Origin: an uncultured archaeon
GTDB taxonomy: Archaea; Asgardarchaeota; Jordiarchaeia; Jordiarchaeales; Jordiarchaeaceae
Direction: 5' to 3'
Assembly: GCA_964510585.1 (NCBI GenBank)
Contig: CAZECW010000004.1
Span: forward strand, 30,001-62,000
DNA length: 32,000 bases
Of this stretch, positions 1,101-3,323 are shown in pieces. A model generated the notes under the pieces. That model searched no databases, was not told the origin of the DNA, and saw nothing but the letters and a program-made list of their open reading frames with translations. The position numbers and the translations under genes are program-made. Every line of letters starts with the position of its first letter. The first letter of the stretch is position 1.

Positions 1101-2159
1101 GTGTATATGTATCTAGAAAAAGTTCCAATTTTGGTGAAACTTTTGCTAAAGGAAACAATGATTTACGAGAAGCTTGATAATAACATGGTAAAATGTGGGA
1201 TTTGCCCCCACCGCTGTCTAATTAAACCCGGAAAGAGGGGAAAATGTAAAACAAGAGAAAACATAGATGGAGTTCTCTACTCCCTTGTTTATTCCTCAAT
1301 ATCTGCTATGGCTAATGACCCTATTGAGAAAAAACCTCTGTTCCACTTTTATCCAGGAAGCACCGCATTTTCTATATCAACGGTGGGATGTACTTTTCAT
1401 TGCCACCACTGCCAAAACTGGAGCATCTCTCAGGCAGAGCCCGAATCTGGCTTAACTAGAGAGTTTTCACCAGAAGAAATTGTCTCAGCAGCTAAGAAAA
1501 GTGGTAGCCGTTCTATCGCATACACCTATAATGAGCCCTTCGTTTTCTACGAATTCGTCTACGATACTGCAAAGATTGCACATAAAAACAACATAAAAAA
1601 TATTCTAGTTACAAACGGGTATGCTACACCTGAGGCCATAGAAAAAATAGCTCCCCTAATAGATGCAGCAAACATTGATGTGAAAGCGATGAGCGAGGAA
1701 TTTTACAGAGAGATATGTGGGGCGCGGCTTCAACCAGTATTGGACGCCGTCCTTCTTATGAAGGAGAAGGGCATTCATATAGAAATTACTTATCTTATAA
1801 TCCCTCAGAAAAATGATAGCGTAGATGAGATAAAGAAATTTGTAGAATGGGTGAAGGGCAATTTAGGACTGGATGTACCTATCCATTTCTCCAGGTTTTA
1901 TCCCCATTACAAAATGAAAAATCTTAGCCCCACCCCAGTTCAAACAGTTATCAAAGCTAGAGAAATTGGGCAAAAAGCAGGACTGCACTACGTCTACTGT
2001 GGAAATATACCGGGAGAGGGAGAGAACACGTATTGCTATAATTGTAACCAATTAATAGTTGGACGATGGGGATACGTAATAGAGGAGTACAAACTTGCCA
2101 AAGGCAATACGTGTCCAAACTGCGGAGCGAAGATAAACATAATTGGAGAATGGGAATAG
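1101..2159 (+). CDS. AmmeMemoRadiSam-system radical SAM enzyme (PflA-like activating-enzyme family)
   Basis: N-terminal CGICPHRC, DPIEKKPLFHFYPG, radical SAM motif CTFHCHHCQNW, YTYNEP, VTNGY, HFSRFYP and a C-terminal CxxC...CxxC. True start probably GTG 1134 or ATG 1158 rather than 1101. Confidence 0.9.
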   Translation: MYMYLEKVPILVKLLLKETMIYEKLDNNMVKCGICPHRCLIKPGKRGKCKTRENIDGVLYSLVYSSISAMANDPIEKKPLFHFYPGSTAFSISTVGCTFHCHHCQNWSISQAEPESGLTREFSPEEIVSAAKKSGSRSIAYTYNEPFVFYEFVYDTAKIAHKNNIKNILVTNGYATPEAIEKIAPLIDAANIDVKAMSEEFYREICGARLQPVLDAVLLMKEKGIHIEITYLIIPQKNDSVDEIKKFVEWVKGNLGLDVPIHFSRFYPHYKMKNLSPTPVQTVIKAREIGQKAGLHYVYCGNIPGEGENTYCYNCNQLIVGRWGYVIEEYKLAKGNTCPNCGAKINIIGEWE

Positions 2160-2173
2160 TTCCCCCCAAATGT

Positions 2174-3323
2174 TTAGGATACTGGGCGCCAGATAATTCC
2201 TAGTTCATCCGCAGTTTTATATGCTTCCTCCATTTCATCGCTAGTCACTCTTCTACATATATCTGCATATTCCTTCCTTCTTGGTACCTCGTGTGTTGGG
2301 TGATACTGTTCCATTATGTTAACTAAAGCTTTAGGACAATTTTTAGCCACCCATTCAAGCACTGGTTTGGTGCAACATTCAACGTGTCCCGGTAAAACTA
2401 GGTGCCTTATTATCATACCAGATGTTCCAGGTTCCACGGTCTCATCATAGGCCATCTTGTGATTTCTTGAAACGACTTCCCAGTAGTTAGAAACTTTACT
2501 CAACCTCTCCGCGCATTGATTATTTCCATATTTAAAGTCGGGGAGCCAGAAATCCATAACGTCCAGTAAAAGCTTCATACATTCTTTGGAACAGTACATG
2601 TTAGAATTCCATAGTTGCACAATGTTTGTTTTAGTTTCCCTGATGCCTTTTAAAATGTTGTAGGTGTTTGGAGTTGGATCTCCACCCACATAATTTATGT
2701 TTCTTGCACCTTCCCTCTTTAGATCTCTTGAGATTCGTGCAAGGCTCTCACCCGAAGTTTCTATACCGTTTTTTGGATTTGTGGAAATGTCATAGTTCTG
2801 ACAAAACACGCATTTAAAAGTGCAACTGGAGAAGAAGAATGCACCGCAAGAGCCTTAACTCTTAAGCGTTTGTGCCTGAAGGAACTAGAGGGGCCTCTTC
2901 CCCTGTATGTATGAATGCTGAGGATACGTAAGACTCGCTACCCAGTTTACAAAATCCTTTTTCACCCTCCAGTCTATTAGCTCCACACCGTCTTTCACAG
3001 AAATGACACTGTGATAGAATCCTTCTTGCTAGTTCCACCTTAACATCCAAATAAGAAATCTTTGGCGAATCCATGTTTCCCAGTTCCAGTTCACCTGCAT
3101 CAATCCGCCTCAAGACACTTCTAAAAACACCACTTATTCTATCATGTTCATCCCAAAGCTTGCCCAGCTCCGCATCTAGCTCCACATCTACACCTACTTT
3201 TAAAGCTATCATAAACTTAGCATAAAGCCTATCATTGAATACCTCATAGTACCTCCAAAGCCTCTCACGAACTATACCGTTATCCCAAACACGGTAAGCA
3301 TCTGGGCGAATTAGTTTCCACAT
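2174..3323 (-). CDS. PflX-like radical SAM protein interrupted by a 31-nt BHB intron (exons 3323-2870 and 2838-2174; spliced product 372 aa)
   Basis: The ORFs 2862..3323 and 2174..2809 are two halves of one family member: CHFCERRCGANR, HTGEEAPLVPSGT | IFFSSCTFKCVFCQNYDIS, NINYVGGDPTP, WNSNMY, PDFKYGN, IIRHLVLPGH, NIMEQYHP. Removing 2839-2869 joins them in frame (454+665 = 1119 nt). Confidence 0.88.
2839..2869 (-). other. Candidate archaeal bulge-helix-bulge intron in mRNA (31 nt)
   Basis: RNA reads AG-GCAC-AA^A-CGC-UU-AAGAG-UUAAGG-CUCUU-GCG-GUGC-AU^U-CU. This gives a 4-bp central helix GCAC/GUGC, two 3-nt bulges, an intron stem and a 2-bp exon helix. The in-frame UAA lies inside the insert. 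Confidence 0.85.

What the first reader, a model, noticed from the sequence alone, without database searches (positions are those of the whole stretch)
2174..3323. Candidate tRNA-type (BHB) intron inside a radical SAM protein-coding gene
Seen: the gene appears as two out-of-frame ORFs. The junction on the mRNA reads ...CCU UCA G-GCAC-AA^A-CGC UU AAGAG UUAAGG CUCUU GCG-GUGC-AU^U-CUUCUUC.... GCAC/GUGC is a perfect 4-bp central helix with a 3-nt bulge on the 3' side of each strand (AAA, AUU), plus an intron stem (CGC/GCG, AAGAG/CUCUU) and a 2-bp exon helix (AG/CU). Established: archaeal splicing endonuclease (EndA) cuts BHB motifs after the second nucleotide of each bulge. Applying that rule removes exactly 2839-2869 (31 nt) and gives GGC ACA AUC UUC UUC UCC AGU UGC ACU UUU AAA UGC GUG UUU UGU = G-T-I-F-F-S-S-C-T-F-K-C-V-F-C. 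That restores the frame, the family's GTIFF segment and the CxxxCxxC cluster motif (372 aa). The cut sites predicted from RNA structure and those needed to restore the protein agree to the nucleotide. The well-documented archaeal mRNA intron is in crenarchaeal cbf5; I do not recall one in this family, but that needs a literature check. Inference: unspliced mRNA stops at a UAA inside the intron, giving a 153-aa fragment lacking the SAM cluster, so enzyme output would depend on tRNA-splicing capacity. Pipelines would call this a pseudogene.
Basis: partly seen in the sequence, partly recalled or inferred. Interest (0 to 1): 0.93.

Follow-up and report, generated by a model that had tools for sequence, protein, structure and literature searches.

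The report
tRNA-type intron in archaeal protein gene
A 31-base intron of the kind archaea normally carry in tRNA genes splits a conserved radical SAM enzyme gene of an Asgard archaeon, and comparison with relatives shows it must be cut out of the messenger RNA; only one archaeal protein gene (cbf5) is documented to be spliced this way.

Summary
The minus-strand gene 2174-3323 is split by a 31-nt insert (2839-2869). [quoted passage not shown]

- **Orthologues.** All 10 genomes of the class (Jordarchaeia/Freyarchaeia, 3 genera) in which the gene was found carry an insert at the same codon. Lengths are 27, 28, 31 or 32 nt. One cut rule (after the second bulge base) restores an intact 372-374 aa ORF reading PSGTIFF..CxxxCxxC in all 13 loci.
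- **Selection.** The central helix is paired in every sequence, and the inner stem shows compensatory changes. Exon synonymous sites inside the helix are frozen. Both exons are under purifying selection.
- **DNA.** Independent DNA runs contain the insert.
- **Machinery.** The genome encodes two EndA paralogues and RtcB.
- **Missing evidence.** No RNA data were available, so splicing itself is inferred.
- **Not unique to this gene.** I confirmed similar 30-31 nt introns in tyrS, ahcY, rtcB and cbf5 of this genome. Odinarchaeia carry one at a second site in this same gene.
- **Earlier scan notes.** The scan has noted this intron before, in this genome and in the same gene of another genome.
- **Literature.** No paper in the searchable library reports it.

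The parts
2870..3323 (-). Exon 1 (454 nt; ATG at 3323). Encodes residues 1-151 plus the first base of the Ile152 codon. It is the N-terminal domain with a CxxCxxxC...C cysteine cluster.
   Evidence: ORF list; alignment to full-length homologues; splice reconstruction; dN/dS 0.11 against the closest orthologue.
2839..2869 (-). 31-nt BHB intron. It starts with the third base of the 5' bulge and ends with the second base of the 3' bulge. It contains the in-frame UAA (2864-2862) that ends the unspliced reading frame.
   Evidence: Same-site inserts of 27-32 nt in 13 orthologous loci.
2174..2838 (-). Exon 2 (665 nt including the stop codon). Encodes residues 152-372: the radical SAM core with CxxxCxxC directly after the junction.
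   Evidence: Pfam PF04055, 37.3 bits, above the cut-off; alignment; dN/dS 0.04 against the closest orthologue.
2872..2875 (-). Central helix H, 5' strand (GCAC). This is exon sequence (Gly/Thr codons GGC ACA).
   Evidence: Paired in 11 of 11 distinct orthologue sequences. The codon pair GGC+ACA is fixed in intron-bearing genes but occurs in only 1 of 71 intron-less orthologues.
2841..2844 (-). Central helix H, 3' strand (GUGC). This is intron sequence.
2869..2871 (-). 5' bulge AAA. The predicted cut lies between 2870 and 2869.
   Evidence: The cut rule (between the second and third bulge residues) is stated in PMC2738675.
2838..2840 (-). 3' bulge AUU. The predicted cut lies between 2839 and 2838.
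   Evidence: Orthologues have AUU or AAU, and both give the junction codon AUC.
2845..2868 (-). Intron helix h' and loop: CGC/GCG (2868-2866 with 2847-2845), a UU bulge, AAGAGU/GCUCUU (2863-2858 with 2853-2848), and loop UAAG.
   Evidence: MFE fold. 85% of cells are paired across orthologues, and two pairs change on both sides (CG/UA/UG and AU/GC/UA).
2836..2837 (-). 3' half (CU) of the marginal exon helix h. It pairs with AG at 2877-2876. This helix is not conserved in orthologues.

Best explanation
The gene is one functional, roughly 372-aa radical SAM enzyme gene (PFL-activase-like, PflX-type). It is interrupted by a 31-nt archaeal bulge-helix-bulge intron.

**Proposed mechanism.**
1. In the pre-mRNA, exon bases GCAC pair with intron bases GUGC to form the 4-bp central helix.
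2. The intron stem (CGC/GCG plus AAGAGU/GCUCUU) closes the 5' bulge AAA.
3. The splicing endonuclease cuts after the second base of each bulge. It is probably an (alpha-beta)2 enzyme built from the two EndA paralogues of this genome.
4. RtcB joins ...GGC ACA A to UC UUC UUC....
5. The join recreates Thr-Ile-Phe-Phe immediately upstream of the CxxxCxxC iron-sulfur motif.

Unspliced mRNA yields only a 153-aa N-terminal fragment.

**Shown here:**
- the insert, its exact boundaries and the motif;
- conservation of the insert and motif in every genome of the class in which the gene was found;
- in-silico repair of every orthologue by one cut rule;
- purifying selection on both exons;
- presence of EndA and RtcB genes.

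**Inferred:** cleavage and ligation in vivo, and the subunit composition of EndA.

The intron most likely dates to the common ancestor of the class. It is one of many mRNA mini-introns in this lineage, not a device specific to this gene.
For: 1. **Exact insert.** The insert is exactly 31 nt relative to about 100 full-length homologues.
2. **Same site throughout the class.** All 10 genomes of the class that have the gene (3 genera) carry an insert at the same codon, as do 5 further assemblies or runs.
3. **One cut rule repairs all.** Intron lengths are 27, 28, 31 and 32 nt, covering all three phases; the 27-nt one is in frame with a TGA. The single cut rule restores 372-374 aa ORFs reading PSGTIFF in 13 of 13 loci.
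4. **Structure conserved.** The central helix is paired in 11 of 11 distinct sequences. 90% of cells are paired overall, against 28-53% when partners are slid. Two stem pairs change on both sides.
5. **Frozen exon synonymous sites.** Gly/Thr codons are GGC+ACA in 10 of 11 intron-bearing sequences and GGU+ACA, still compatible with pairing, in 1 of 11. The GGC+ACA pair occurs in 1 of 71 intron-less orthologues, although synonymous sites are saturated within the class.
6. **Both exons still coding.** dN/dS is about 0.04-0.11.
7. **Insert present in DNA.** Independent runs carry it.
8. **Machinery present.** Two EndA paralogues are found; one is closest to the crenarchaeal A. pernix and P. aerophilum EndA chains. 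RtcB is also present.
9. **Lineage context.** 92-95% of tRNA genes in this lineage carry BHB introns (PMC11291895).
10. **Other genes of this genome.** tyrS, ahcY, rtcB and cbf5 show the same motif and the same cut rule.
11. **A second site in this gene.** Odinarchaeia carry a BHB intron at a different site in the same gene.
Against: - No transcript evidence. No RNA run that I could lay holds the locus. Two libraries labelled metatranscriptomic hold the unspliced form, but in contigs of up to 85 kb, so they look like DNA.
- The outer exon helix is only 1-2 bp and is not conserved. The 3' bulge is therefore poorly closed and needs an endonuclease with relaxed specificity.
- The folding energy of the region is not better than that of shuffled sequence (z = -0.59).
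- The covariation rests on few independent lineages.
Confidence: 0.88

Rival explanations
1. Translational bypass (ribosome hopping, as in phage T4 gene 60). The ribosome takes off at Gly GGC (2876-2874), skips the hairpin and lands at Gly GGU (2845-2843), giving ...PSG-AFFFSSC... without any RNA processing.
For: Two Gly codons flank a hairpin that contains a stop. The downstream frame read from GGU has the same length as the family consensus.
Against: - The product would replace the conserved Thr-Ile (SGTIFF in homologues) with Ala-Phe or Ala-Ile. Splicing recreates TI exactly in 13 of 13 loci.
- The take-off and landing codons are not identical.
- Bypass does not explain the 4-bp helix plus 3-nt bulge geometry.
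- It does not transfer to the Odinarchaeia second-site insert or to the tyrS, ahcY, rtcB and cbf5 inserts, all of which obey the BHB cut rule.
Confidence: 0.03
2. A genuinely split gene. The 153-aa N-terminal domain and a separately initiated C-terminal radical SAM domain are made as two polypeptides that assemble.
For: Gene callers report two ORFs in every assembly.
Against: - In the window, the first start codon in the C-terminal frame is a GTG at 2809. It lies after two of the three cluster cysteines.
- The starts called in orthologues are inconsistent.
- In G005 the insert is in frame, with a single TGA.
- This model gives no reason for the conserved BHB or for the frozen exon synonymous sites.
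Confidence: 0.04
3. A pseudogene, a programmed +/-1 frameshift, or a sequencing/assembly artefact.
For: Taken on its own, the locus looks like a frameshifted gene.
Against: - Both exons are under strong purifying selection across saturated synonymous divergence.
- The frame offsets of orthologues are 0, +1 and +2, which no single frameshift rule fits.
- The insert is identical in independent DNA runs and present in a long-read-validated closed genome.
Confidence: 0.02

Closest known systems
cbf5 pre-mRNA intron of Crenarchaeota (Desulfurococcales, Sulfolobales; Watanabe 2002, Yoshinari 2006, Yokobori 2009 = PMC2738675)
   Same: - A short BHB-type intron inside a protein-coding gene.
- Cut between the second and third bulge residues.
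- A relaxed motif, linked to a hetero-oligomeric EndA.
- It splits the ORF at a catalytic-site motif, so annotators miscall the gene.
   Different: - A different gene (radical SAM) in a different phylum (Asgard, Jordarchaeia/Freyarchaeia).
- Splicing is not yet shown experimentally.
- It is one of several mRNA introns in this genome, whereas cbf5 is the only archaeal gene with confirmed pre-mRNA splicing.
Non-canonical BHB introns of tRNA genes in Freyarchaeia/Jordarchaeia and Atabeyarchaeia (PMC11291895; bioRxiv 10.64898/2026.10.13.758758)
   Same: Same lineage, same size range, same motif and presumably the same EndA/RtcB machinery.
   Different: The host is an mRNA, so the exon half of the motif must also encode protein. 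Neither paper mentions protein-coding introns ('mRNA' 0 occurrences in the preprint; the Nat Commun intron passages concern tRNA).
Unconventional HAC1/XBP1 mRNA splicing in eukaryotes (from my own knowledge, not tested here)
   Same: Spliceosome-independent excision of a short mRNA intron from stem-loop sites. An RtcB-type ligase does the joining in metazoa, and excision shifts the reading frame.
   Different: The nuclease is IRE1, not the tRNA splicing endonuclease. That system is a regulated stress switch; no regulation is shown here.
Translational bypass in phage T4 gene 60 (from my own knowledge)
   Same: A short stop-containing hairpin insert between two Gly codons in an otherwise intact gene.
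   Different: Bypass leaves the RNA intact and needs matched codons. It predicts a different peptide and none of the BHB geometry seen here.

Membership tests
Archaeal BHB (EndA/RtcB-spliced) intron | 4-bp central helix between the two cut sites | tested here: met
   GCAC/GUGC. Paired in 11 of 11 distinct orthologue sequences; the only change is C to U, giving a G-U pair.
Archaeal BHB (EndA/RtcB-spliced) intron | Two 3-nt bulges on opposite strands directly flanking the central helix | tested here: met
   AAA (AAU in G005) on the 5' strand and AUU/AAU on the 3' strand, with identical spacing in all orthologues.
Archaeal BHB (EndA/RtcB-spliced) intron | Inner (intron) helix h' of at least 2 bp | tested here: met
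   CGC/GCG plus a 5-6 bp extension. The helix is 7-8 bp in other genera, and two pairs show compensatory changes.
Archaeal BHB (EndA/RtcB-spliced) intron | Outer (exon) helix h of at least 2 bp (strict hBHBh') | tested here: inconclusive
   The window has 2 bp (AG/CU). Orthologues have 1-2 bp with no conservation. The motif fits the relaxed HBh' class, which is also scored as canonical in the preprint's scheme.
Archaeal BHB (EndA/RtcB-spliced) intron | Cutting between bulge residues 2 and 3 yields the functional product | tested here: met
   13 of 13 loci give intact 372-374 aa ORFs with PSGTIFF and CxxxCxxC, across intron lengths of 27, 28, 31 and 32 nt. The cut rule is quoted from PMC2738675.
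Archaeal BHB (EndA/RtcB-spliced) intron | Splicing endonuclease and RNA ligase encoded by the organism | tested here: met
   Two PF01974 loci, on contigs C157 and C126, both above the cut-off. PDB matches are to crenarchaeal and M. jannaschii EndA. RtcB scores 578 bits.
Archaeal BHB (EndA/RtcB-spliced) intron | Spliced RNA junction or excised (circular) intron observed | not testable with these tools
   No RNA holder was listed for the locus, and the laid runs are DNA-like contigs.
Radical SAM superfamily (PF04055) | Pfam match above the gathering score, and a CxxxCxxC cluster motif | tested here: met
   PF04055 scores 37.3 bits against a cut-off of 29.5 on exon 2. CTFKCVFC follows the junction.
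PFL-activating enzyme / NrdG equivalogs (NCBIfam TIGR02493, TIGR02495) | Score above the curated equivalog cut-off | tested here: not met
   The best scores are 31-36 bits against cut-offs of 131-232 bits for the full-length homologue P0006. No solved structure matches by sequence. The enzyme's substrate is unknown.
Programmed +/-1 ribosomal frameshift | The same frame offset in all orthologues | tested here: not met
   Insert lengths modulo 3 are 0, 1 and 2 in different orthologues.

The most novel reading that the evidence does not exclude
Splicing of messenger RNAs by the tRNA-splicing machinery may be a routine and obligatory step of gene expression in Jordarchaeia/Freyarchaeia. It may also occur, at other sites, in Odinarchaeia and a further Asgard family.

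It would affect many conserved genes, including the ligase RtcB itself and Cbf5. [quoted passage not shown] This radical SAM gene has acquired BHB introns at two sites 27 nt apart in different classes.

That would make an Asgard lineage a prokaryote that depends on mRNA splicing. It would also point to recurrent, site-biased intron gain in coding sequence.
Probability: 0.45. Interest if true: 0.9.

Novelty: new member of a known kind. Interest (0 to 1): 0.78.

Why it matters
- **A rare phenomenon extended.** Confirmed archaeal pre-mRNA splicing is limited to one gene, cbf5, in Crenarchaeota (PMC2738675). A class-wide, selection-maintained BHB intron in a second, unrelated protein gene extends it to Asgard archaea, the closest prokaryotic relatives of eukaryotes. 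Sibling introns in tyrS, ahcY, rtcB and cbf5 of the same genome add to this.
- **Annotation.** Annotation pipelines systematically break these genes. This inflates pseudogene counts and removes enzymes from metabolic reconstructions.
- **A testable system.** The locus offers the same gene with two independent intron sites and clean covariation, which could be used to ask how BHB introns enter coding sequence.
- **Expression coupling.** Expression of an Fe-S enzyme, and even of the RNA ligase itself, would require EndA/RtcB activity.

Tried and rejected
- **Homology-free genome-wide BHB scan.** I required a 4-bp helix, a 4-bp inner stem and merging of two ORFs. It gave 974 hits against 1278 in a mirror-repeat control, and it missed the target intron because of its UU bulge. 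It is uninformative, so I give no census.
- **Looser regional scan.** The hits are mostly gene boundaries. Pfam showed the adjacent ORF pairs in the window to be separate genes (PheRS alpha/beta, and DUF1512 plus an unknown ORF), and the complete Prs gene at 8-895 to be unbroken.
- **RNA evidence.** No RNA holder was listed. Runs X11/X12, labelled metatranscriptomic, hold the unspliced locus in contigs of up to 85 kb and are probably DNA. No joints were seen.
- **Rfam and ARAGORN on the window.** Nothing found.
- **Folding energy as a significance test.** z = -0.59, not informative.
- **NCBIfam and PDB sequence searches.** They gave no specific name or structure for the enzyme.
- **Orthologue in G029 (family f17).** It changes frame at VNW|VGG without an insert. 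This is an ordinary frameshift or an assembly error, not an intron.
- **Literature.** I found no report of mRNA BHB introns in Asgard archaea. The library lacks most subscription journals, so this is not proof that none exists.

Full report
**1. What is in the sequence**

The gene lies on the minus strand. ORF 2862-3323 (153 aa) ends ...GEEAPLVPSGTNA at a TAA. A second frame is open from 2854 to 2174 and reads GSCGAFFFSSCTFKCVFCQNYD.... Exon 2 matches Pfam Radical_SAM above the gathering score.

The mRNA around the break reads UCAG GCAC AAA CGC UU AAGAGU UAAG GCUCUU GCG GUGC AUU CUUC. Its energy is no better than that of shuffled sequence (z = -0.59), so energy alone proves nothing.

**2. The insert is exactly 31 nt**

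A search with the C-terminal frame found thousands of archaeal homologues of about 370 aa. Aligned full-length homologues read PSGTIFFxSCTFKCVFCQ with no gap at the break. Removing 2839-2869 gives a 372-aa ORF with ...PSGTIFFSSCTFKCVFCQ....

At a pre-specified boundary, a 4-bp Watson-Crick helix plus at least 3 bp of inner stem in the correct register is found at about 2.6e-4 of random positions in this genome.

**3. Orthologues**

The nearest database proteins are truncated at this point too. Their contigs show two abutting ORFs.

The window's genome (3.78 Mb, 217 contigs) belongs to a class with 11 species genomes. Ten of these have the gene, and all ten are interrupted at the same codon. 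Record titles name the group Candidatus Jordarchaeia / Freyarchaeota. It includes the closed genome SRVP19_Freyarchaeia-1, CP147778.1.

Intron lengths across 13 loci:

| Length | Where | Phase |
|---|---|---|
| 31 nt | own genus | +1 |
| 28 nt | a close relative and the second genus | +1 |
| 32 nt | GCA_052745115 | +2 |
| 27 nt | third genus | in frame, with a TGA |

I applied one rule to all 13 loci: cut after the second base of each bulge. The rule is the one stated for cbf5 in PMC2738675. Every locus then gives an intact 372-374 aa ORF reading PSGTIFF. No frameshift rule can do this, because the offsets differ.

**4. Selection on the RNA structure**

- On the 11 distinct junction sequences, the central helix is paired in every sequence.
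- Over all 12 pairs, 90% of cells are paired, against 28-53% when the 3' partners are slid by 1-3 columns.
- Two inner-stem pairs change on both sides (CG/UA/UG and AU/GC/UA).
- The loop and stem length vary freely, while GCAC, the bulges and GUGC do not.
- The exon half of the helix uses the synonymous sites of the Gly and Thr codons. The 11 intron-bearing sequences have GGC ACA (10) or GGU ACA (1, G-U compatible). Seventy-one intron-less orthologues use all four Gly and all four Thr codons, and combine GGC+ACA only once.
- This constancy is not explained by recent ancestry, because synonymous sites are saturated within the class (pS 0.66-0.78).

**5. The gene is alive**

dN/dS against the closest orthologue is 0.11 for exon 1 and 0.04 for exon 2. 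In more distant pairs, amino-acid divergence stays at 6-12% while synonymous sites are saturated. Exon 2, downstream of the apparent frameshift, is therefore still decoded.

**6. The insert is real DNA**

Contigs of two independent hot-spring runs from different studies cover 2424-3228 with no differences and no gaps. A strain about 95% identical has no change between 2723 and 2888. No joints were seen, but no true RNA run was available. Splicing itself therefore remains an inference.

**7. Machinery and lineage context**

The genome has two EndA homologues.
- The first is closest to the Aeropyrum and Pyrobaculum EndA chains (3p1z_B, 3ajv_B, 2zyz_B) and keeps a His in the Y...H region.
- The second is more divergent and lacks that His.

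This fits a two-subunit (alpha-beta)2 enzyme, which with the epsilon2 type is one of the two known to cut relaxed motifs (abstract of PMC5829648). The subunit assignment is my inference. RtcB is present.

Published work shows that 92-95% of tRNA genes in Freyarchaeia and Atabeyarchaeia contain introns, often several and at non-canonical positions (PMC11291895; bioRxiv 10.64898/2026.10.13.758758). Neither paper mentions protein-coding introns.

**8. Not unique to this gene**

Earlier notes of this scan pointed to other split genes in this genome. I checked four of them by reading the sequence.

| Gene | Location | Length | Central helix | Bulges | Restored motif |
|---|---|---|---|---|---|
| tyrS | G000 C4:22120-22149 | 30 nt | CUGG/CCAG | AU^A, AA^U | EPSGLFHLG |
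| ahcY | C4:20568-20597 | 30 nt | UGGG/CCCA | AA^A, AA^U | KWEFDN |
| rtcB | C58:3762-3791 | 30 nt, in-frame TGA | CCCG/CGGG | AC^A, AA^G | D-AHQGYGFP |
| cbf5 | C18:27688-27718, minus | 31 nt | CACU/AGUG | AG^A, AA^A | GTL-D-PKVTG |

[quoted passage not shown] PMC2738675 assigns the crenarchaeal cbf5 exon-intron boundaries to that same place.

Within my 32-kb window, the other abutting ORF pairs are separate genes.

**9. A second intron site in the same gene**

Among 201 genomes sampled from the phylum, 174 have the gene. In most genomes outside the class it is uninterrupted. There are exceptions:
- Four Odinarchaeia loci carry a 29-nt insert between CxxxCxx and the third Cys. It has helix GCGU/ACGC, bulges AU^A and AA^U or AC^U, and a contiguous 7-bp stem.
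- One genome of another family (G058) carries a 30-nt insert with an in-frame TAA at the same place.
- Excision restores C-T-F-R-C-A-Y-C-Q-N.

This site is 27 nt downstream of the Jordarchaeia site.

**10. Rivals**

- **Translational bypass** from GGC to GGU would give a protein of the same length, but with the conserved Thr-Ile replaced. It explains neither the BHB geometry nor the other introns.
- **A two-polypeptide split gene** lacks a usable, conserved start. In the window the first start lies after two of the three cluster cysteines.
- **Pseudogene, frameshift and artefact** are contradicted.

**11.

Nothing supports a regulatory role. The presence of similar introns in unrelated housekeeping genes argues for a general intron load tolerated by a permissive endonuclease. 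Dependence of the enzyme on EndA/RtcB activity is nonetheless a direct consequence of the gene structure.

**12. Novelty**

In the searchable library, cbf5 is the only archaeal gene with confirmed pre-mRNA splicing; introns in other genes were only predicted. Searches for Asgard, Freyarchaeia or Jordarchaeia mRNA introns found nothing.

The scan itself has flagged this intron before. A first-stage note covers it in this genome, and a follow-up on the same gene in another genome reached the same reading.

I class the finding as a new member of a known kind. The wider possibility is that mRNA splicing is routine in this Asgard lineage.

Noticed in passing
L047:2130-2163 region (G011); L136, L137 and L138 near 1170-1200; L051 near 110-150 (G058): The same radical SAM gene carries a BHB intron at a different site in Odinarchaeia (29 nt) and in one genome of another Asgard family (30 nt, with an in-frame TAA). 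That site lies between CxxxCxx and the third cluster Cys, 27 nt downstream of the Jordarchaeia site. Excision restores CTFRCAYCQN or CNFKCAHCQN.
   Followed up: partly
G000 C18:27688-27718, minus strand (L216:1797-1827): cbf5 of this Asgard genome has a 31-nt canonical BHB intron (CACU/AGUG helix, 7-bp stem). [quoted passage not shown] PMC2738675 places the crenarchaeal cbf5 exon-intron boundaries at that same place. This means either ancient inheritance or repeated gain at one site.
   Followed up: partly
G000 C58:3762-3791 (L034): rtcB, the gene for the ligase expected to join the exons, is itself interrupted by a 30-nt BHB intron with an in-frame TGA (CCCG/CGGG helix). Making the ligase would therefore need pre-existing ligase.
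   Followed up: partly
G000 C4:20568-20597 and C4:22120-22149 (9.4 kb and 7.9 kb upstream of the window start): ahcY and tyrS each carry a 30-nt BHB intron at a conserved motif (KWEFDN and EPSGLFHLG after excision). Their bulges are A-rich (AA^A or AU^A, and AA^U), like those of the intron studied here.
   Followed up: partly
L048/L052 (G029, family f17): The orthologue changes frame at VNW|VGG with overlapping alignments and no insert. It is probably an ordinary frameshift or an assembly error.
   Followed up: no
L050/L053 (G024) and L049/L054 (G110): Orthologues in two other Asgard families lie in one open frame of 424-469 aa. An in-frame insertion sits between residues about 222 and 226 of the query.
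   Followed up: no
window 1101-2159 (+): The convergent neighbour is an AmmeMemoRadiSam-system radical SAM enzyme (TIGR04337, 368 bits). The pairing of the two radical SAM genes, next to Prs and a THUMP methyltransferase, is conserved across the class.
   Followed up: no
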